From a virus, in IMG/VR virus record IMGVR_UViG_3300045256_000058, positions 64,001 to 128,000 of that record: a stretch of 64,000 bases of DNA. The stretch is one strand, 5' to 3'. Within the stretch, counting starts at the first letter, position 1. Each line of letters begins with the position of its first letter. Shown in pieces: positions 7,820-60,031 of the stretch. The notes beneath the pieces are model-generated. The model was not told where the DNA came from, did no database searches, and saw nothing but the letters and a program-made list of their open reading frames with translations. Both the position numbers and the translations under genes were made by a program.

Positions 7820-8602
7820 TTAGACAGGCATTGCTGCTAGTATCTCATTCAAATCAAAATCTGTATTTATGTTAAGAAGATTAGCAACAAATTGTTTTCT
7901 ATTAGTAAAATTATAACTTTTCCAAAGCATTAGAAACTGAAACCAACTCAGTGTTTTGTCTGTAGGTTTATAATCTTTGAGATATGCAATTTGTGTGTCA
8001 CTTAAAATCTCATTGTTCGCATTTCTAAGACTTTCAGTATAAATAATAGTCGGAGCTTCAGGAAATGTAACCATATGAGGATACAAAGAGAAATTAATAC
8101 TATCTCGAAGTATCTGTCTATAGAGTTTATACTTTTGTTGAGTTTGAGTAGAAACAATATCACTGCTTTCTATCCAATCAGTATCAGTAAGCAACTTGTT
8201 TCTCTCCGCTCTTTTTGTTTCCCATTCAGTATCTAACTTTTGTTGATTAACAGAGTAACTAACTTTTACTTTCCAACTACTACTATTTGAATCATAATAA
8301 GGACTCGACAATTCTTTGCTCACATACTTAAAAAACTCATTAATATCAATAGTGTCTATGCTGCTATCAACTTCGATAGAAAATGGTTCAATTACATAAT
8401 CAACGACAAAGAAATTAAAGTATCCAAATACCTCATCAGTAATAGTCGCAGAAAAAATAGTACTAGGGAATAATTGTTTCAGATACTCTTTAGCTTGTGC
8501 ATACAAATATAAAGTTGGTGAGACGCTTTGAATATTAGGAGCATACACGTATAGTTTTGGCAGAGTTTCATTAAATATTAATGTAATAGTTTTAGTTGTC
8601 AT
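7820..8602 (-). CDS. Tail fibre assembly chaperone-like protein
   Basis: RAERNKLLTDTDW...YRQILRD...FPEAP motif; adjacent to fibre genes. Confidence 0.7.
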   Translation of the reverse strand: MTTKTITLIFNETLPKLYVYAPNIQSVSPTLYLYAQAKEYLKQLFPSTIFSATITDEVFGYFNFFVVDYVIEPFSIEVDSSIDTIDINEFFKYVSKELSSPYYDSNSSSWKVKVSYSVNQQKLDTEWETKRAERNKLLTDTDWIESSDIVSTQTQQKYKLYRQILRDSINFSLYPHMVTFPEAPTIIYTESLRNANNEILSDTQIAYLKDYKPTDKTLSWFQFLMLWKSYNFTNRKQFVANLLNINTDFDLNEILAAMPV

Positions 8603-52772: not shown

Positions 52773-52832
52773 TCGATTGGTTCATAGTTTACTCCTGTAG
52801 ACAGGGCTTTCGTAATTGGAAGCCCATTTTTT

Positions 52833-52924
52833 GCCCCTGTAGCTCAATGGTAGAGCGGGAAGCTTATATCTTCCGTATGCACCCGATTAGTGCGCGGTTG
52901 GCGGTTCGAGTCCGTCCAGGGGTA
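52833..52924 (+). tRNA. tRNA-Ile(TAT) with long variable arm
   Basis: Acceptor GCCCCTG/CAGGGGT, stem GGAAG/CTTCC, loop CTTATAT, 25-nt variable region. Confidence 0.85.
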
Positions 52925-53800
52925 TCTCTAACTACGAGGTAGTAGTATGGACATAATGGAATTTATTGTCGAAACAATTCGGCAAGATATGAATGATATT
53001 TTAAGTGAAAGACCTACTTACGGTGATACGGAAATAGATGTAGCACATTTAAGAGGTAAGCAAGCTGTAGCCGAAGACATTCTAGAGTTTATTAGAAAGT
53101 ATGTCCCTAACTCAAGTATTAGCTGAACTAGGTTTCAAGTACGAAAATATACTTGCAGATAAATTCAGTGATTATATTAGGTGTGTGGAAGAATTTAGAT
53201 TTGCAGAGGCACTTAGCCTTTTATTTGAGGTCATAAAAAATGAAGCTAAATTACGGTGAAGTTTGTTATAAACAGACTAATTATAATGATTTACAGAATT
53301 TTCTATCTTTTCACATTGGTACTAATGTAGAAATAATGTGGAGAGGAAATGATACCGATGAAACTTACACAGTAGAAAAAGATAATCAGTTTTGGGATGA
53401 GGAAGAGTACAAAGAACTTCTAGCTAGAGAACGTATTCCAGCTAAGAGTTATGGAACGCTAACCATTCCTGAATCGGTTAACTATGAAGAATATGAAGTA
53501 GGTACTCTTCTTGAAGGTCTATGTAGAGAAGGAAAATTAGAAGAAGGTAGTTATTTAGTTACTGTAAGTTGGTAGGAGAGTACATAATGGGAATTGTTAC
53601 ACATGGATTGGCTCAAATTGAGTTTGAAACTTATGCTTCTCAATTTGACCGTAGATTTGATAAGCTTATTGACCGCATTATTGAAGACTTAGTAAACAAT
53701 GGTATTCCTTTTGCTGATAAAGTTACAATGCGGTCTGTTGCTTTAAGTCAAAAAGCAAGAAAAGAAAAAGACTATTTGAACACATTACATAGAGCGAGAT

Positions 53801-54427: not shown

Positions 54428-55011
54428 GGTTTTGACTACCTATTTGACGCTTCAACCTATTTACTCTGTAGATATTGAAGCAATCGGTTTGATTACACTG
54501 GGCATAGCCTGTATAGGTATTGTTCTAGCTCTTATCTTTAGTGATTAATTATGACTACTGCGGAACGTCAAAAAAGAGTTCGGATTCCAAAAGAACCAAC
54601 TCGTCAATTTATTATCGAGGATATTGCACACCCCGTCATTCAGAACTTTGGTTCAGTTCCCGATGGTTCTTATGTCATTATGTATCGTGAGAAACCTCGT
54701 AAAGATGGAATTCTATTTCACGGACAAAATGAATGGGAAACTACTTATGACTCTACGGCTCGTAAGTACAATCGTAGACTTTTAGGTTTTGTTCCTTTTA
54801 TTTATCGAAAGGAAGAAACTAATCGAACAAAGATTTCTGGCATGGCTACTAATGCTCGTAGATACTATGGAAGTATGTGGAGAGGTATTGAGAAGCTTCA
54901 ATTCTACAGTAGAAGTAAGGGTTACATTCCTCCTGATACAGCGGTAATTGTTCTCTCACCTGAAATAGTTCAAAAGCATCAGCTCGCTAGATATACATGG
55001 TAGTCTAGATA

Positions 55012-55063
55012 AGAGGGTTTCAGCAATTCAACTGCTTTTTATTGCAAAGCCAAAAAACCCTCT
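55012..55063 (+). ncRNA. CAGCAA stem-loop element 1
   Basis: AGAGGGTTT/AAACCCTCT 9-bp stem, CAGCAA, inner GCTTT/AAAGC stem with a 7-nt loop. Confidence 0.7.
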
Positions 55064-55927
55064 GTAATTCTTTTGAGACATTTTCATGAAGACTAAACAA
55101 CTCGACTTGGCTAAATCAGTATTCAAGTTTGAGTCATCAGATAAAACTTCTCTAGATTATCTGGAGTTATGTTATGCGTTCTATCAAGCAGTAAGAAAAC
55201 CTTATGCGCTATCGATGGAAGAATTCGCGGAGGCACTAGATTATGCAGTTCACAGACGAGACTGAAAAACGTGAATACCAACGAACAGTTGAGTTAGAAA
55301 ACGTATCTACGGAAGAGTTAGTAAGATTAATGGTTAAATATACTATTGCCTTACTAAGAAACAAGGATTCGATTACTGGTCGTTTTGCTGCTGAATTAAC
55401 AAATAATAAAGCAGAGCAGACTAGATTAGGTCTAATTACCGATTGCTGTATTATTCCTTACGGTAATGCAAGCGTATCGGATGTAGTTCGTTCCATGATG
55501 TCAGAAATTACTCCAGCAGTAAGTAATGACATTATCTTTCGAGATGCGATGATAGCTTTAATTATCTGGTATGAGTTGAGGCAAGTCGATGAATAGGGAT
55601 ATAGAATGGCGTAATTTTAGACTTGTTACGATGAAAGGCAAAGTAAATCCACTTTATATTCATCTAACTAAATATAAAATTGAGCCAGGTCGTATCGGAA
55701 TGACTGAGACTATGTTCCCAAATCGTAATGAACGAGAAAGCATAGATATAACGTGGTTTGGATTCAAAAATCTAAAGCATGGTTATTGGAAGTTCATTCG
55801 TGAGGGTAAAAAATATTGGCAAGGAAAGTGGGAAAGGTGGGATTGGATTACTCCCCTTTTTAGCATCACTTTAACAGTTAGACGGGACTTATGGACAGAT
55901 GGAACCTATCACTAGATGTTATAGGTA

Positions 55928-55956
55928 TTGACATTAGCTATAAGTTTCGCTAATAT
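55928..55956 (+). promoter_or_regulatory. Sigma70-type promoter of the CAGCAA-RNA / Ro60-like operon
   Basis: TTGACA-17 bp-TAATAT; predicted start falls at the 5' end of element 2. Confidence 0.75.
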
Positions 55957-55962
55957 GATATA

Positions 55963-56025
55963 AGAGGAATTCAGCAATCTACTTATCCCTTTGATTCATA
56001 CTCAAAAACGGAAAAAAATTCCTCT
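55963..56025 (+). ncRNA. CAGCAA stem-loop element 2
   Basis: AGAGGAATT/AATTCCTCT stem, CAGCAA, inner TTTGA/TCAAA stem with loop TTCATAC. Confidence 0.75.
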
Positions 56026-56038
56026 GCTTAAAGATTTT

Positions 56039-56094
56039 GGGGATTCAGCAACTCACTGTATTATTTCGCCAAACTTGGAATAAAAACAATCCCC
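56039..56094 (+). ncRNA. CAGCAA stem-loop element 3
   Basis: GGGGATT/AATCCCC stem, CAGCAA, inner TTATTTC/GGAATAA stem. Confidence 0.7.
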
Positions 56095-56126
56095 TAGTTA
56101 ACCTTCATTGATTTTTGGAGTGTATT

Positions 56127-57701
56127 ATGGTCGTGTCAAAATTGAAGAATCTGAAATATTCACCAGCAGTTCCGTTTACTTACACGGAAAATGGTGCAAT
56201 TACATACAAAACAACTGGAAGTGCCGTACTTGACTTATTCTCCAGAGGCGCAGCAATGCGTATGGGAGGTCGGTCTTCTGAGCGTGATATTACGGGCATA
56301 TTTCGACCAGCGTTTCAAGAGAACGCAGCACTCGCTATGGCTACTCTTTTTTACATTCGAGATATTCCTCGTAAAGGAAAGGGTGGGCAAGGTGAACGTA
56401 ATTTCTTTCGTCTTGCATTTACTTGGGTAGCAAATAACTATCCTGAGCTTGCAAAAGAATTACTAAAGTTTATTCCTGAGTACGGAACTTGGAAGGACGT
56501 TCTCTATGCAACTAGAGGTACTCCGGTGTATGAAAATGCACTGAGTTTAATGGGTTATCAATTAGCTGTAGATGCTCTTGCATTGTCAGAAGGTAAAACA
56601 AATATCTCTCTAGCAGCTAAATGGAGTCCAAATGAATCATCAGGAAAACTATCTCAAAAGATGGCAGTTGAGCTTGCTACTCATTTAGGTCTTTCAATGA
56701 AAGGCTATCGCAACTTAACTAGCCCTCTGAGAAAGCATCTGAAGCTGGTAGAAACAGCTATGTCTTCTGGTAATTGGCATGAAATCGATTACGAAAAAGT
56801 GCCTTCAAGAGCTATGAAGATGTATCGTAAAGCATTTTATAAGAGAGATGAATCAAGATTCTCTGCTTATATTGCTGCTGCGGTAATGGGTGCAAAGAAA
56901 ATTAACTCTACTACTCTGTATCCATACGAAATCATTAAGGATTTAATCCCTTATGGTAGACCGATGGCTTACGGGTCATCTACGGATGAAAAAGCTCTGG
57001 AAGCAATGTGGAATGCTTTACCTAACTATCTAGAAGGTCAAGCTCTAAATGCTTTAGTTGTAGTGGATGTGTCCGGTTCAATGGCAGGCGACCCAATGTA
57101 TGTTTCGACATCATTAGGTCTATACGTCGCAGAACGTAACGAACACCCTCTATGGAAAAACCACTTCATTACCTTTTCTGCGGAGCCTAAGCTTCAAAAG
57201 ATTACGGGTAAGAGCTTTAAGGATAGAGTGTCATCATTGTTTAAGAATGCTGGTTACAACACAAATTTACAGGCTGTGTTTGACTTAATTCTTGACAAAG
57301 CAAAATCAGCCAAGCTATCTCAATCAGACTTGCCGGAAACAGTTTATATTGTTTCGGATATGGAATTCGACCAAATCGAAGATGGGTATGGCGGATATGG
57401 CTGGTACTCTTCGTCTTCTGCTGCATCTAAGAAAGCAAAGACTAATCTCTCTGCAATTAGAGCGAAGTTTAAGAAGGCAGGTTACGAAATGCCTAAGATT
57501 GTGTTCTGGAACGTAAGAGCAGCAAATATGCAATCTCCTGCAACCTTTAACGAGGATGGAGTTGCAATGTTCTCTGGACTGTCTCCAACTATCTTTCAAG
57601 CGGCATTGACTGGTAATTTTGACCCACTTTCAGCAATGCTGGAAACGATTGCGTCAGAAAGATACCGTCCAATTATCGATACAACTGTGTCGAGCTTGTA
57701 G
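56127..57701 (+). CDS. Ro60/TROVE-like RNA-binding protein (DUF2828 type) with C-terminal VWA
   Basis: TENGA, LDLF, FYIRD..GQGER, YGTWKD, AAKW, VPSRAM, LYPYE; MIDAS DVSGSM, NTNL and SDMEFD; VFWN. Confidence 0.85.
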   Translation: MVVSKLKNLKYSPAVPFTYTENGAITYKTTGSAVLDLFSRGAAMRMGGRSSERDITGIFRPAFQENAALAMATLFYIRDIPRKGKGGQGERNFFRLAFTWVANNYPELAKELLKFIPEYGTWKDVLYATRGTPVYENALSLMGYQLAVDALALSEGKTNISLAAKWSPNESSGKLSQKMAVELATHLGLSMKGYRNLTSPLRKHLKLVETAMSSGNWHEIDYEKVPSRAMKMYRKAFYKRDESRFSAYIAAAVMGAKKINSTTLYPYEIIKDLIPYGRPMAYGSSTDEKALEAMWNALPNYLEGQALNALVVVDVSGSMAGDPMYVSTSLGLYVAERNEHPLWKNHFITFSAEPKLQKITGKSFKDRVSSLFKNAGYNTNLQAVFDLILDKAKSAKLSQSDLPETVYIVSDMEFDQIEDGYGGYGWYSSSSAASKKAKTNLSAIRAKFKKAGYEMPKIVFWNVRAANMQSPATFNEDGVAMFSGLSPTIFQAALTGNFDPLSAMLETIASERYRPIIDTTVSSL

Positions 57702-57733
57702 AAAAAACTAGGAGGTGAAAGTCCTCCTCTCAT

Positions 57734-57855
57734 GCGGCGTTGGTGTAATGGTAGCATCTAACAGCAAAAACCCCTCTTAGTGTAGAGGTTCAGCAATTTA
57801 ATTAGCTTATTTTCTTTGAACGAAAAAGGAGAGGGTTCGAGTCCCTCACGCCGCT
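57734..57855 (+). ncRNA. tRNA-like RNA with a 51-nt insertion carrying two CAGCAA motifs (element 4)
   Basis: Perfect acceptor stem, D arm, anticodon arm (loop TTTGAAC) and T arm; insertion at 57759-57809. Confidence 0.8.
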
Positions 57856-58899
57856 TACCATTATTAAGGAGGTAATATATGGGTTATCAAACTAAGTTTT
57901 CTATTTCGATAGAACCTATGGATAAGAGTTTGGTTGCATCTCCATCAAATAAGCCACTATTGTTTGAAGAATACACTAACCCTGCCATTTATATTCCCAA
58001 TCAAATCTCAGAAGCGATTGCAAAAGAAATGGGAGTGGATGATATTAGAACATACGATGACCTGCAAGATATGTTCGATAATGATTCTATGAAATGGTAC
58101 TCTTACAAAAAAGATGTTGTAAAAGTGAGTGCTAAGTTTCCTGGCTGGTTAATTACAATTAGCGGAGAAGGTGAGCAAACAGAGGATGTGTGGAATACAT
58201 ATTTTCTTGACGGTAAGTATCAGCACGCACAGGCTGTATTTTCTATCGAACCATTTGATGAATCAAGACTTGTATCCTTGAATCGTATCTAGTAGTAAAA
58301 TATTAGATATACTTCAATTAGGTTACTCGATGAAAGTAGAACAAATTAAACGCATCTGCAAGTCTTTTGGATACAATTCAAGCTTCGTAGTTAATTATTT
58401 TCTAACTAAGAAAGACACTGAAGTACCAGTAGTTACTCAAGTATCTGGGTTAAGAAAGAAACATTGGGAGTATTTTATGAAGAATTATATTACTCCTAAG
58501 TACGGTGCAAGTTTGGATGACTAATTAGGAGTACAAAAATGGCAAATACAATGGTAATTTCATGTTCTTGTGACCATGAATTTCAAAACAATGAATACGG
58601 AAACGGTAAGAGACTAGCCAATCTAAATGAAAAAGCTGGTAAAGCTAACTGTACGGTATGCGGTAAGCAACACATCTACAAAACCCCAAGCACTAAGTAA
58701 ATATGTATGGAATTGTTCCCCCAGGTCTAGAGCCTAAAGTAGAAAACTTTTACAGAGAAGGTACAGATAAAGCTGTACTATTTGATACACTTACTGCCGC
58801 AGTAAAGTACATCGAATCTCTTCCTGTAGCTAATAAGTTTCTCTTCAAGATAGTTTACGTTTCTCTTTCAATCGAAAAAATTATTACGAGGTAATTCAA

Positions 58900-59226
58900 A
58901 TGCGTAAGTTCACTCTTCCTGCCGTAGCAGGTGTTCTCGCTCTTTCTTTGGCTGCATGTGGTCTGTCTGCTCAACAAATTCGTGCAAATGCAATTGCAAA
59001 TGCTAATGATTTTGCTGGTCGTAGTCAAGGACGTTACAGTGTAGTTGATTGTTCTGGTCGTGATTCTGATAAGGAAGGTACTCCTGGTTACGGTTATGTA
59101 ACTTGTACTCTTTTAGATGCGAAGGATAACGGTAAGTCTGTAAATGCAGAATGTGGTTATCTTGAACTTGGTATTGGATGTAAGATTAAGGAAGATAAAA
59201 CTCCTGTAGTCATTCAAAAATCATAG
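58900..59226 (+). CDS. Small Cys-containing lipoprotein
   Basis: Lipobox SLAAC and four further Cys residues. Confidence 0.7.
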   Translation: MRKFTLPAVAGVLALSLAACGLSAQQIRANAIANANDFAGRSQGRYSVVDCSGRDSDKEGTPGYGYVTCTLLDAKDNGKSVNAECGYLELGIGCKIKEDKTPVVIQKS

Positions 59227-59235
59227 TTCAAACAG

Positions 59236-59264
59236 TTGACAACTTCATTCTCAATTGCTAATAT
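59236..59264 (+). promoter_or_regulatory. Sigma70-type promoter with extended -10
   Basis: TTGACA-17 bp-TAATAT, with TG at -15/-14. Confidence 0.75.
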
Positions 59265-59270
59265 AGTAAT

Positions 59271-59341
59271 AAGGATGATTTAGTCATCTCCATTTTTGAC
59301 CTCCGCAACTGGCTCTTAGAATCGACCCTGAGAGCCTTTTT
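59271..59341 (+). ncRNA. Candidate trans-acting anti-RBS small RNA
   Basis: Promoter, 5' hairpin, unpaired CCATTTTTGACCTCCGCA seed, and terminator GGCTCTTAG/CTGAGAGCC followed by T5. Confidence 0.6.
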
Positions 59342-59412
59342 ACTTCAATGGTGTAGTGGTAGCACAGGAGATTCCAAACCTCTTAGCCTGGGTTCGATTC
59401 CTAGTTGTCGTG
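59342..59412 (+). tRNA. tRNA-Trp(CCA), degenerate acceptor stem
   Basis: Loop TTCCAAA; canonical D and T arms; two acceptor-stem mismatches. Confidence 0.7.
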
Positions 59413-59962
59413 TTTTTTTTAAGTTCGGATAATCAATATGAAACTTAAATTTTGGTTTCATTCTCTATTTTGTGGGATTACATTTCGAGTAGGTAAATAT
59501 ACTTTAGGAATGTTTGGAAGTAACAAAAGAGAATATGAAAGAGGCGGTAGTACAGATTTTACATTTGATAACGGTACTACTCGTTGGGAATTATATCTTT
59601 ACAATTACGGCGGTAAGCCTTGTTTAGATACGAACAGTATGCCTAGTTGGTATCACTAATGTCTAAAGAACAAAACAAAGAAGTAAAAACAACAACCCCT
59701 CCTGCTGCCCCTGTGCCCAATGTAACAGTGGTAACTGGTCAAGGACAATCTACAAACGAGGATGAAGGTTCAACTAGAACTGTATATTGGAGTTAAAAAT
59801 GGGTACAAGAGATATTCAGTTAGAAACACTAACTAAGTTGTGGCTTGAGAGAAAAAATGCGGCACTTAAATTACCGGAAAGTGAAGCAAAAATTACTCTA
59901 CTTAAGCTAATTGAAGAAGAAAGAGTTTATTTAGGTATTCCAGAAGAAGCCTAAACAATCTT

Positions 59963-60026
59963 GGAGGGAGTCAGCAATCTAATTATGGATTACAATGTGA
60001 TGTAAAAAACCAAACAAACTTCCTCC
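59963..60026 (+). ncRNA. CAGCAA stem-loop element 5
   Basis: GGAGGGAGT/ACTTCCTCC stem, CAGCAA, inner TTACA/TGTAA stem; 5 nt before tRNA-Gly. Confidence 0.7.
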
Positions 60027-60031
60027 GTTAT

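What the first reader, a model, noticed from the sequence alone, without database searches (positions are those of the whole stretch)
57734..57855. Chimeric tRNA with a 51-nt double-CAGCAA module inserted between the D arm and anticodon arm
Seen: perfect acceptor GCGGCGT/ACGCCGC, D arm GTGT-AATGGTA-GCAT, T arm GAGGG-TTCGAGT-CCCTC, anticodon arm TTTTC-TTTGAAC-GAAAA (anticodon TGA) and a 4-nt variable loop. Positions 57759-57809 carry CAGCAA-AAACC-CCTCT/AGAGG hairpin-TT-CAGCAA, which looks like a circular permutation of element 1. Known: tRNA-Ser needs a long variable arm, so this is unlikely to be a working Ser tRNA; bacterial YrlA Y RNAs join a Ro-binding stem to a tRNA-like domain, though with different topology. 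Inference: a tRNA mimic tethered to the Ro-like protein, possibly bait for anticodon nucleases or a recruiter of tRNA-handling enzymes. A novel tRNA intron is less likely.
Basis: partly seen in the sequence, partly recalled or inferred. Interest (0 to 1): 0.85.

Follow-up and report, generated by a model that had tools for sequence, protein, structure and literature searches.

The report
tRNA-shaped RNA with Ro60-type docking arm
This phage gene encodes a complete tRNA-shaped RNA with an extra conserved arm, most likely a docking handle for the Ro60-like protein encoded just upstream; it resembles bacterial tRNA-mimicking Y RNAs but has a different layout, motif and protein family.

Summary
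Window 57734-57855 folds as a full cloverleaf with a 51-nt insert (57759-57809) between nucleotide 26 and the anticodon stem. ARAGORN misses it. With the insert removed it calls a 71-nt tRNA(UGA).

The insert is a circular permutation of the "helix + CAGCAA / A-rich strand" module. Four free-standing small RNAs around the neighbouring DUF2828 gene carry the same module, and that gene's model matches Ro60 structures.

The layout is a conserved class. I found 37 distinct tRNA-plus-module RNAs beside distant DUF2828 genes (34-42% identity). All helices covary. A covariance model built without the window sequence scores it at 66 bits (E 2e-13).

Only the second CAGCAA is the conserved motif. The first belongs to the A-rich strand.

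I read it as a non-decoding, Y-RNA-like partner of the Ro60-like protein, not an intron-bearing tRNA:
- The class I body cannot be a Ser tRNA.
- The phage has its own canonical tRNA-Ser(UGA).
- Near-orthologous copies differ in anticodon.
- The phage encodes no splicing endonuclease or RtcB.

Binding and expression are untested. This scan has reported the same class on other genomes. I found no paper or Rfam family that describes it.

The parts
57734..57740 (+). acceptor stem, 5' strand (GCGGCGT)
   Evidence: Pairs 7/7 with 57848-57854. These acceptor columns covary in 31 relatives.
57743..57757 (+). D arm GTGT-AATGGTA-GCAT, followed by nucleotide 26 (C, 57758)
   Evidence: The D stem covaries in alignment A2.
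57759..57772 (+). 5' linker and A-rich strand of the module (TAACAGCAAAAACC). It contains the non-conserved first CAGCAA.
   Evidence: Aligns with the A-rich strands of relatives. It resembles the 3' A-rich strand of free-standing E1.
57773..57788 (+). helix S closed by a loop: CCTCT-TAGTGT-AGAGG
   Evidence: The six helix-S pairs all show changes on both sides in relatives. The helix has the same AGAGG/CCTCT sequence as the phage's free-standing modules.
57789..57796 (+). TT + invariant CAGCAA motif
   Evidence: C, G, C, A, A are invariant and the first A is nearly invariant in 31 aligned chimeras. The motif is also shared with the free-standing modules.
57797..57809 (+). 3' linker (TTTAATTAGCTTA) back to the tRNA body
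   Evidence: The TT after CAGCAA is common in relatives.
57810..57826 (+). anticodon-type arm TTTTC-TTTGAAC-GAAAA (U33, UGA, A37)
57827..57847 (+). 4-nt variable loop AGGA and T arm GAGGG-TTCGAGT-CCCTC
57848..57855 (+). acceptor stem 3' strand (ACGCCGC) and discriminator T. No CCA is encoded.
   Evidence: None of the phage's 21 tRNA genes encodes CCA either.
56115..57701 (+). DUF2828 + DUF7788 (vWA-like) gene with a Ro60-like fold. The start may be the ATG at 56127. The stop lies 32 nt upstream of the chimera.
   Evidence: Pfam. PHROG 850 'RNA-binding protein'. The AF2 model's top PDB matches are Ro60 of phage phiLo, Deinococcus, Xenopus and human.
55012..55065 (+). free-standing module RNA E1 (AGAGGGTTT-CAGCAA ... 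A-rich-AAACCCTCT-GT)
   Evidence: Weak Rfam match to Dictyostelium Class I RNA, 18.3 bits.
55963..56027 (+). free-standing module RNA E2
   Evidence: A promoter-like TTGACA-17-TAATAT at 55928-55956 lies just upstream (consensus match only).
56039..56096 (+). free-standing module RNA E3
59963..60027 (+). free-standing module RNA E5 (GGAGGGAGT-CAGCAA ... ACTTCCTCC), just before tRNA-Gly
57710..57728 (+). hairpin AGGAGG-TGAAAGT-CCTCCT between the gene's stop and the chimera. Role unknown.
   Evidence: No T-run follows it on the + strand.

Best explanation
The element is a small-RNA gene, not a decoding tRNA. It encodes a complete tRNA-shaped RNA with free acceptor ends that carries an extra arm at the D-stem/anticodon-stem junction.

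The arm is the 'helix S + CAGCAA strand / A-rich strand' module. This module defines all the small RNAs that travel with DUF2828 (Ro60-like) genes. Here its two strands are in swapped order, so helix S is closed by a loop and the tRNA is the cargo.

Proposed mechanism, with each step marked:
1. Inferred: the RNA is co-transcribed with the DUF2828 gene and cut out by RNase P and 3' processing like any tRNA. The host then adds CCA.
2. Inferred from linkage, by analogy with Ro60 and Y RNA: the module docks on the Ro60-like ring.
3. Inferred: the tRNA body is thereby tethered to the protein. It either recruits or sequesters tRNA-binding factors, or simply serves as a stable, self-processing scaffold.

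Shown here: the structure, its conservation and covariation, its linkage to DUF2828 genes, and the Ro60-like fold of the protein model.
For: 1. The protein next door is Ro60-like over its full length. The top 10 PDB matches are all Ro60, with E from 2e-6 to 3e-4. Pfam assigns DUF2828 + DUF7788.

2. The module is a real, strand-specific RNA motif linked to this gene family.
- In 89 IMG/VR loci fetched by DUF2828 homology, 144 stem+CAGCAA+A-rich modules lie on the gene strand and 14 on the other strand, in 60 of 89 loci.
- It is also present beside the gene in Listeria phage A511, Mycobacterium phage Aegeus, Synechococcus phage B23 and Escherichia phage wV8.
- In loci picked by a DNA pattern alone, modules with stems of at least 7 bp occur at 15.7 per 100 kb in contigs that encode DUF2828 and at 3.3 per 100 kb in contigs without a match. 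Of the 8 complete genomes without the gene, only one weak, atypical hit was found, in L097.

3. The tRNA-embedded layout is a conserved class.
- There are 37 distinct copies plus B23's annotated 'tRNA-Undet'.
- In alignment A2, 97.9% of cells pair. The covariation score is 0.898 against 0.257 in shuffles (0 of 500 reach it) and at most 0.195 when the partners are slid.
- The leave-one-out model scores the window element at 66.1 bits, E 1.8e-13.
- All 7 contigs in which a pattern scan found true chimeras encode DUF2828.

4. Helix S of the chimera has the same AGAGG/CCTCT sequence as this phage's own free-standing modules. Other lineages use AGATA/TATCT or AGACAC/GTGTCT in both forms. This suggests a shared partner.

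5. A decoding role is unlikely.
- The anticodon is UGA (Ser) on a class I body with a 4-nt variable loop.
- The phage already has a canonical long-arm tRNA-Ser(UGA) at genome 137127-137213.
- In 14 near-orthologous pairs the anticodon loop differs at 25.5% of positions and the rest at 9.8%. The anticodon or its loop differs in 9 of 14 pairs, for example Thr to Pro and Trp to Cys.
- In relatives the insert interrupts the 5' strand of the anticodon stem at positions ranging from 26/27 to 31/32.
Against: - No binding, expression or RNA-end data exist for this element.
- Removing the insert restores an ARAGORN-callable tRNA in 34 of 38 copies. Many copies keep a canonical 7-nt loop with U33 and a purine at 37, and the anticodon stem is maintained across the insert by compensatory changes. 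A spliced pre-tRNA would look the same.
- Linkage to DUF2828 is partly confounded with linkage to tRNA arrays.
- My control set is imperfect, because each control locus contains one CAGCAA by construction and many contigs are fragments.
- The protein model has only moderate confidence (mean pLDDT 70.3, 7-sequence alignment).
Confidence: 0.6

Rival explanations
1. Intron-bearing pre-tRNA. The 51-nt module is excised by a protein-dependent endonuclease and a ligase, giving a mature 71-nt tRNA that decodes. The module serves as the splice signal, or becomes a separate small RNA after excision.
For: - In-silico excision yields full-length tRNAs in 34 of 38 copies, including this one.
- The anticodon stem is preserved across the insert with compensatory changes, for example ACG|GC:GCCGT, CG|CCT:AGGCG and CT|CCG:CGGAG.
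- Many loops are canonical.
- The phage encodes one PF09414 RNA-ligase-family protein, at genome 4345-4776.
- Listeria phage A511 has an RtcB-type 'tRNA splicing ligase' 1.3 kb from its DUF2828 gene.
Against: - At 51 nt the insert is far too small for a group I or group II intron, and it is not in the anticodon loop.
- I saw no bulge-helix-bulge motif at the junctions (by inspection only).
- The phage has no tRNA-splicing endonuclease (PF01974), RtcB or T4 Rnl1. The Rnl1 search had no positive control.
- The spliced product here would be a UGA-anticodon tRNA without the long variable arm that SerRS needs (established knowledge), and it would duplicate the phage's real tRNA-Ser(UGA).
- The anticodon changes between near-orthologous copies.
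- The same module exists as free-standing RNAs, and as RNAs whose ends form helix S around tRNA-like cargo. An intron role cannot explain these.
Confidence: 0.1
2. Scaffold only. The module does bind the Ro60-like protein, but the tRNA body has no ligand of its own. It is used only because RNase P, 3' processing and the tRNA fold give a stable small RNA with defined ends inside a polycistronic transcript. The anticodon arm is a drifting remnant.
For: - The element sits 32 nt after the stop codon and 23 nt before the next ORF's ATG, with no promoter of its own detected.
- Anticodon loops drift, and some relatives have lost U33 or a purine at 37, for example ACGGTAA, ATTGTCA and CTGGTTA.
- Free-standing modules do without a tRNA body.
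Against: - Most copies keep a canonical anticodon loop and a full 5-bp anticodon stem, even when the insert splits the stem. That is more than a scaffold needs.
- Free-standing modules in the same operons apparently get defined ends without a tRNA.
- Some free-standing modules carry tRNA-like D and T arms as internal cargo. This suggests the tRNA shape itself is selected.
Confidence: 0.15
3. The module's partner is not the DUF2828 protein. It is instead a processing or regulatory signal of phage tRNA arrays, for example a nuclease or RNA-chaperone site, and lies near DUF2828 only because both sit in tRNA regions.
For: - Modules and DUF2828 genes both sit within tRNA arrays.
- No binding data exist.
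- A few good-looking modules occur in contigs where DUF2828 was not found (L112, L116, L100).
Against: - Those three contigs are fragments (6-26% complete).
- The 8 complete genomes without DUF2828 gave only one weak, atypical hit.
- Mycobacterium phage Aegeus has modules directly after the gene with no annotated tRNA in the 6.4-kb stretch.
- The arrangement, with small RNAs flanking the gene on the same strand, matches known Ro60/Y RNA loci.
Confidence: 0.1
4. Dead gene. A former tRNA was disrupted by insertion of a repeated element and is now a pseudogene.
For: tRNA finders fail on it or label relatives as 'tRNA-Undet' or pseudo.
Against: - The acceptor stem (7/7), D, T and anticodon stems are all perfect.
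- The layout is conserved across phages whose DUF2828 proteins are only 34-42% identical, with covariation in every helix.
- The leave-one-out model gives E 1.8e-13.
Confidence: 0.03

Closest known systems
YrlA-type Y RNAs bound by bacterial and phage Ro60/Rsr (Chen et al. 2014, PMC4201824; structure preprint 10.1101/312249)
   Same: Both are small RNAs encoded beside, and on the same strand as, a Ro60-shaped protein gene. Both combine a protein-docking module with a tRNA-like body that has D and T arms. They often occur with further small RNAs that lack a tRNA domain, YrlB-like there and E1-E5 here.
   Different: - Topology: YrlA is a circularly permuted tRNA. Its 5' and 3' ends form the Ro60-binding stem as an extension of the anticodon stem, its acceptor stem is a closed loop, and it has no free CCA end. 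Here the order is that of a normal tRNA, the acceptor ends are free, an anticodon arm is kept, and the docking helix is the part closed by a loop.
- Motif: the conserved motif is CAGCAA plus an A-rich strand, not GNCGAAN0-1G.
- Protein: Pfam assigns DUF2828/DUF7788 and gives no TROVE match at E <= 0.01.
- Rfam: no family other than a partial tRNA match hits the element.
Thermus phage phiLo Ro60 with Yrl1/Yrl2 (PMC12135203)
   Same: A phage-encoded Ro60 homologue with small RNAs encoded next to the gene and shown to bind it. This protein is the best structural match to the window's protein model (9l5y, 9kop).
   Different: Yrl1 and Yrl2 are stem-bulge-stem RNAs with a CGAA motif and have no tRNA body. 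Sequence identity to the window protein is about 15% in the structural alignment.
Class I RNAs of dictyostelid amoebae (Rfam RF01414; PMC7919456)
   Same: The free-standing relatives of the insert share their design: 42-65 nt, a short covarying stem joining the 5' and 3' ends, a conserved motif ending in CAGCAA directly after the 5' strand, an AAG start and a CUGU end. E1 of this window reads AAGAGGG...CAGCAA...CCCTCUGU and gives a weak RF01414 match.
   Different: The match scores 18.3 bits against a gathering score of 41.5. Class I RNAs are reported as unique to Dictyostelia and bind an RRM protein. None is embedded in a tRNA.
Escherichia phage Bas63 gp130 (PhageMaP preprint 10.1101/2024.10.10.617714)
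   Same: A Ro60-like phage protein encoded directly upstream of a tRNA array. The authors suggest some of those 'tRNAs' may be Y RNAs, and they report that the gene counters the Ppl defence system. The related Felixounavirus wV8 has a DUF2828 homologue (33% identity) followed by CAGCAA modules in its tRNA array.
   Different: The preprint identifies no RNA. I did not examine Bas63 itself. wV8 shows free-standing modules, and the model R1 found no clear closed chimera there (best hit 36.7 bits).

Membership tests
Canonical decoding tRNA | Uninterrupted cloverleaf recognised by tRNA finders | tested here: not met
   ARAGORN makes no call. Rfam tRNA gives a partial match at 23.1 bits, below the gathering score of 29. 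A 51-nt insert lies between nucleotides 26 and 27.
Canonical decoding tRNA | Acceptor, D, anticodon and T arms with a 7-nt loop, U33 and a purine at 37 | tested here: met
   All four arms are present and fully paired. After in-silico removal of the insert, ARAGORN calls a 71-nt tRNA(tga).
Canonical decoding tRNA | Body identity consistent with the anticodon (tRNA-Ser has a long variable arm) | tested here: not met
   The variable loop is 4 nt. The phage's real tRNA-Ser(tga) is 87 nt with a long arm. The SerRS requirement comes from established knowledge.
Canonical decoding tRNA | Aminoacylation and use in translation | not testable with these tools
   Needs acid-urea gels or charged-tRNA sequencing.
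YrlA-type Y RNA | Encoded next to, and on the same strand as, a Ro60-type protein gene | tested here: met
   The element lies 32 nt downstream of a gene whose model matches Ro60 structures. By Pfam the protein is DUF2828, not TROVE.
YrlA-type Y RNA | Ro60-binding stem formed by the 5' and 3' ends, with a conserved GNCGAAN0-1G strand | tested here: not met
   Here the ends form the acceptor stem. The conserved motif is CAGCAA, next to a hairpin.
YrlA-type Y RNA | tRNA-like domain with D and T arms | tested here: met
YrlA-type Y RNA | Match to a curated Rfam model | tested here: not met
   A cmscan of 55000-59500 at E <= 10 returns only tRNA and chance-level hits.
CAGCAA-module RNAs linked to DUF2828, tRNA-embedded subclass (unnamed) | Invariant CAGCAA 0-3 nt after the 3' strand of a covarying hairpin, with an A-rich strand before the hairpin | tested here: met
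   CCTCT-TAGTGT-AGAGG-TT-CAGCAA preceded by CAAAAACC. CAGCAA is invariant or nearly so across 31 aligned RNAs, and all 6 hairpin pairs covary.
CAGCAA-module RNAs linked to DUF2828, tRNA-embedded subclass (unnamed) | Insert on the 5' side of the anticodon stem of an otherwise complete tRNA body | tested here: met
   The insert follows nucleotide 26 here and lies between 26/27 and 31/32 in 38 copies.
CAGCAA-module RNAs linked to DUF2828, tRNA-embedded subclass (unnamed) | Scores with a model built from other members | tested here: met
   Model R1, built without the window row, gives 66.1 bits, E 1.8e-13, over model positions 1-118.
CAGCAA-module RNAs linked to DUF2828, tRNA-embedded subclass (unnamed) | A DUF2828 gene in the same genome | tested here: met
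   Here the gene is adjacent. All 7 pattern-found contigs with true chimeras encode it.
CAGCAA-module RNAs linked to DUF2828, tRNA-embedded subclass (unnamed) | Physical binding to the DUF2828 protein | not testable with these tools
   No RNA-protein tool is available, and no published data were found.
tRNA intron (group I, or bulge-helix-bulge type) | Group I catalytic core located in the anticodon loop | tested here: not met
   The insert is 51 nt and lies between nucleotide 26 and the anticodon stem. No intron family hit appears in Rfam.
tRNA intron (group I, or bulge-helix-bulge type) | Splicing endonuclease and RtcB-type ligase available | tested here: not met
   PF01974 and PF01139 are absent from the complete 146-kb genome, and controls were positive. 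Only a PF09414 ligase-family gene is present. Host enzymes are unknown.
tRNA intron (group I, or bulge-helix-bulge type) | Spliced product observed | not testable with these tools
Dictyostelid Class I RNA (RF01414) | Reaches the Rfam gathering score | tested here: not met
   Free-standing E1 scores 18.3 bits against 41.5. The chimera itself gives no hit.

The most novel reading that the evidence does not exclude
Phages with a Ro60-like DUF2828 protein make whole tRNA-shaped RNAs whose fast-changing, tRNA-like anticodon loops act as exchangeable baits. The docking arm fixes them to the protein ring. The particle then captures, blocks or hands over for degradation host factors that attack tRNA anticodon loops, such as anticodon nucleases of defence systems. 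This would be an RNA-guided counter-defence and a function for a very large protein family of unknown role.
Probability: 0.15. Interest if true: 0.9.

Novelty: new variant of a known kind. Interest (0 to 1): 0.7.

Why it matters
- DUF2828 is a large family of unknown function. Conserved partner RNAs would give it a testable function.
- The tRNA-embedded form suggests that the Ro60/Y-RNA logic, a ring protein plus a tRNA mimic, was reached a second time with the opposite topology. Here the tRNA keeps free ends and an anticodon arm, so unlike YrlA it could in principle be processed, CCA-tailed and recognised like a real tRNA.
- It connects to current work on host defences that cut tRNAs and on phage tRNAs as counter-measures (PMC11464382, PMC12409363). 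It also connects to the report that a Ro60-like phage protein counters a defence system.
- For annotation, these genes are missed or labelled 'tRNA-Undet' or pseudo-tRNA, and free-standing modules are overprinted by hypothetical ORFs.

Tried and rejected
- Megablast of 54900-58400 against sequenced phages found no match. Closer relatives for fine-scale conservation were therefore not available, and the nearest DUF2828 proteins are at most 42% identical.
- A sequence search of the protein against PDB chains gave nothing meaningful. The Ro60 relation appeared only by fold.
- A literature search for DUF2828 returned only incidental mentions. The Ro60 review PMC10870794 is not held. The Staphylococcus phage K transcriptome paper lists ncRNAs, but I did not connect them to this family.
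- My first reading took the module hairpin for the anticodon arm and TTTTC-TTTGAAC-GAAAA for a variable arm. I rejected this. The Rfam tRNA model and the relatives place the latter as a normal anticodon arm followed by a 4-nt variable loop, and in relatives the insert splits the anticodon stem.
- A control for linkage to DUF2828 using pattern-selected loci was imperfect. Each locus contains one CAGCAA by design and many contigs are fragments. The first crude count was uninformative, so I refined it by presence of the gene in the whole contig.
- A T4 Rnl1 (PF09511) search had no positive control, so its negative result carries no weight.
- The minimum-free-energy fold of the single sequence does not reproduce the D arm. 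The cloverleaf-plus-hairpin structure evaluates at -29.7 against -36.8 kcal/mol. This is common for tRNAs with G-U-rich D stems, and I did not count it against the structure.
Full report
**1. The observation**

- A perfect 7-bp acceptor stem: GCGGCGT 57734-57740 with ACGCCGC 57848-57854, and discriminator T.
- A D arm, GTGT-AATGGTA-GCAT (57743-57757).
- A 5-bp anticodon-type stem with a 7-nt loop, TTTGAAC (57810-57826; U33, UGA, A37).
- A 4-nt variable loop and a T arm, GAGGG-TTCGAGT-CCCTC (57831-57847).

Between nucleotide 26 (57758) and the anticodon stem lie 51 nt (57759-57809). Their order is an A-rich strand, the hairpin CCTCT-TAGTGT-AGAGG, TT, CAGCAA, and a 13-nt linker.

ARAGORN does not call the element. 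The Rfam tRNA model aligns only its 3' two-thirds, at 23.1 bits and below threshold. When a script removes the 51 nt, ARAGORN calls a full-length 71-nt tRNA with anticodon tga.

**2. Surroundings**

The element starts 32 nt after the stop codon of a 528-codon ORF (56115-57701) and ends 23 nt before the ATG of the next ORF.

The ORF is DUF2828 plus DUF7788 by Pfam and 'RNA-binding protein' by PHROGs. Sequence search against PDB chains found nothing. An AlphaFold2 model (mean pLDDT 70) has Ro60 proteins as its top ten PDB matches over the full length: phage phiLo Ro60, Deinococcus Rsr, Xenopus Ro and human Ro60. 'Ro-like' is therefore justified at the level of fold.

Four free-standing RNAs surround the gene on the same strand: E1 55012-55065, E2 55963-56027, E3 56039-56096 and E5 59963-60027. 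Each has a closing stem, then CAGCAA, a variable hairpin, an A-rich strand and the complementary strand.

The chimera's insert is E1 with its two strands swapped. E1 ends GCCAAAAAACCCTCT and begins AGAGGGTTTCAGCAA. The insert reads GCAAAAACCCCTCT-loop-AGAGGTTCAGCAA.

The window lies in a 146-kb IMG/VR virus record rated complete. It has 21 ordinary tRNA genes, none of which encodes CCA.

**3. The module is a conserved RNA motif tied to DUF2828**

No close relative of the phage exists in the collections. I therefore fetched 89 IMG/VR loci through DUF2828 homology at 34-42% identity.
- A mechanical scan for 'stem of at least 6 bp, 0-3 nt, CAGCAA, 16-220 nt, A-rich, complementary strand' found 144 hits on the gene strand and 14 on the opposite strand, in 60 of 89 loci. 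The stems differ in sequence but always pair.
- The same modules lie beside the gene in isolated phages: Listeria A511, Mycobacterium Aegeus (overprinted by an annotated hypothetical ORF), Synechococcus B23 and Escherichia wV8.
- As a partial control I used loci found by a DNA pattern alone. Good modules occurred at 15.7 per 100 kb where the contig encodes DUF2828 and at 3.3 per 100 kb where no gene was found. The convincing hits in the second group were in contigs only 6-26% complete. The eight complete genomes without the gene gave one weak, atypical hit. This control is imperfect, as explained under Tried and rejected.

**4. The tRNA-embedded layout is a class, not an accident**

A scan for the swapped order (A-rich strand, hairpin, 0-3 nt, CAGCAA), followed by a search for a T arm and a 7-bp acceptor stem, found 37 distinct RNAs of 112-148 nt in these loci. 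Synechococcus phage B23 adds one more, annotated there as 'tRNA-Undet'.
- In the alignment of 31 of them, CAGCAA is invariant or nearly so.
- RNAalifold recovers the acceptor, D, module-hairpin and T helices.
- 97.9% of cells pair and 20 of 22 pairs show double changes. The covariation score is 0.898, against 0.257 for shuffles (0 of 500 reach it) and at most 0.195 for slid partners.
- A covariance model built from 29 of them, without the window sequence, scores the window element at 66.1 bits, E 1.8e-13, end to end. The best ordinary tRNA in the window scores 43.5 bits.
- A pattern scan of IMG/VR returned mostly chance matches, as expected from its information content. The seven contigs in which the match was a true chimera all encode DUF2828.
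- The first CAGCAA of the window copy has no counterpart in relatives. It is part of the A-rich strand.

**5. Arm or intron?**

This is the real question, and the sequence evidence points both ways.

For an intron:
- Removing the insert restores a callable tRNA in 34 of 38 copies.
- In many relatives the insert splits the 5' strand of the anticodon stem, and the split stem is kept by compensatory changes: ACG|GC with GCCGT, CG|CCT with AGGCG, CT|CCG with CGGAG.

Against an intron:
- The insert is 38-52 nt in most copies (up to 75 nt in a few), lies outside the anticodon loop and sits at variable positions (26/27 to 31/32).
- The complete phage genome has no splicing endonuclease and no RtcB, with positive controls. 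It has only one PF09414 ligase-family gene far away.
- In this copy the 'exons' would give a UGA-anticodon tRNA with a 4-nt variable loop. By established knowledge SerRS would not charge this, and the phage has a proper long-arm tRNA-Ser(UGA).
- Among 14 near-orthologous pairs, the anticodon loop differs at 25.5% of positions and the rest of the RNA at 9.8%. The anticodon or its loop differs in 9 of 14 pairs, for example Thr to Pro and Trp to Cys, and some loops lose U33 or the purine at 37. Decoding tRNAs do not behave like this.
- The same module occurs as stand-alone RNAs and as RNAs whose ends form helix S around tRNA-like D and T arms (L006 2337-2435 and 2707-2825). In those there is nothing to splice.

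A split but maintained anticodon stem fits equally well with a permanent three-way junction. I put the intron reading at about 0.1.

**6. How it most likely works**

Shown:
- A conserved, covarying tRNA-shaped RNA gene carrying the family module.
- Tight, same-strand linkage to a gene whose product is predicted to fold like Ro60.
- Helix S in the chimera sharing this phage's own AGAGG/CCTCT version of the helix, while other lineages use AGATA/TATCT or AGACAC/GTGTCT in both forms.

Inferred:
- The RNA is released from the gene's transcript by tRNA-processing enzymes and receives CCA.
- The module docks on the Ro60-like ring as Y RNAs dock on Ro60.
- The tRNA body is thereby tethered to the protein.

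What the tRNA body does is open. It may be a handle for tRNA-binding proteins, including nucleases of host defence systems that cut tRNAs (background). It may also be no more than a stable, self-processing scaffold. I give the overall 'Y-RNA-like partner, non-decoding' reading 0.6. Within it I cannot choose between tether, decoy and scaffold.

**7. Comparison with known systems**

- The closest functional analogue is YrlA. It is a Y RNA with a tRNA-like domain, encoded beside Rsr/Ro60. It is not the same family. YrlA is a circularly permuted tRNA whose ends form the Ro60-binding stem. Its acceptor stem is closed and it has no free CCA end. Its conserved strand is GNCGAAN0-1G and its protein is a TROVE-family Ro60.
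- Here the tRNA order is normal, the ends are free, an anticodon arm is kept, the docking helix is the closed one, the motif is CAGCAA, and the protein is DUF2828. No Rfam family matches.
- The free-standing relatives of the insert look much like dictyostelid Class I RNAs in design: AAG start, short covarying terminal stem, a motif ending in CAGCAA, and a CUGU end. The Rfam score, however, is far below threshold.
- A preprint on phage Bas63 reports that a Ro60-like protein upstream of a tRNA array counters a defence system. It guesses that some of the 'tRNAs' are Y RNAs but identifies none. The related phage wV8 does carry CAGCAA modules in that array.

**8. Novelty and limits**

I found no paper or Rfam family that describes the module or the tRNA-embedded form. 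The library searched is incomplete.

Earlier notes of this same scan describe the same family and the same chimera layout on many other genomes, and they reach the same reading. Those are unchecked AI notes.

No expression or binding evidence could be obtained. The protein model has moderate confidence. The linkage control is imperfect.

Noticed in passing
window 52832-52926 (+): tRNA-Ile(UAU) is 95 nt long because of an extra region of about 25 nt between the anticodon stem and the T arm. This region contains a hairpin, GCAC-CCGATTA-GTGC, so the tRNA has a class II-like arm, which is unusual for an Ile tRNA. ARAGORN and Rfam both call it (56.7 bits).
   Followed up: partly
G000:C1:128241-128376, i.e. 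241-376 nt beyond the window's end: CAGCAA preceded by TAGAC and followed by a tRNA-like body (acceptor GGAAGGT/ACCTTCC, D arm, T arm AGGAG-TTCGATT-CTCTT) that ARAGORN does not call. The complementary GTCTG lies about 30 nt after it. This may be a free-standing module with a whole tRNA-like cargo, but the closing stem is only 5 bp.
   Followed up: no
L091 3945-4088 (Mycobacterium phage Aegeus gp61): The annotated 'hypothetical protein' gp61, directly after the Ro-like gene, overlaps two stem+CAGCAA/CAGCGA modules (TGGGCGCG...TGCGCCCA and TGGACCC...GGGTCCA). The ORF is probably a mis-annotation of small-RNA genes.
   Followed up: partly
L216 6200-6950 and 7852-7922 (Escherichia phage wV8): Four modules with the closing helix AGAAGACC/GGTCTG lie inside the tRNA array after the DUF2828 gene, and one carries a T arm. 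The annotated pseudo 'tRNA-OTHER' at 7852-7922 has CAGCAA where the D loop should be, and it ends in CCA. This bears on the Bas63 gp130 report.
   Followed up: partly
L093 2700-2960 and 5857-7068 (Listeria phage A511): Three CAGCAA modules lie directly upstream of gp57 (DUF2828, annotated 'RNA-binding protein'). An RtcB-type 'tRNA splicing ligase' gene lies 1.3 kb downstream.
   Followed up: no
L014 5633-5749 and L015 4123-4240: Two near-identical chimeras (95.8% identity) have anticodons CCA and GCA. Both have a G3-U70 pair in the acceptor stem (GGGAACG/CGTTTCC), which by established knowledge is the main identity mark for alanyl-tRNA synthetase.
   Followed up: no
window 57710-57728 (+): A perfect hairpin, AGGAGG-TGAAAGT-CCTCCT, lies between the DUF2828 stop codon and the chimera. 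No T-run follows it on the + strand. It may be a processing or stability element.
   Followed up: no
window 59236-59336 (+): A promoter-like site (TTGACA-17-TAATAT with TG) is followed within about 50 nt by a strong terminator-like hairpin (59311-59336, with a T-run), directly before tRNA-Trp (59341). This could be a very short transcript or an attenuator-like arrangement.
   Followed up: no
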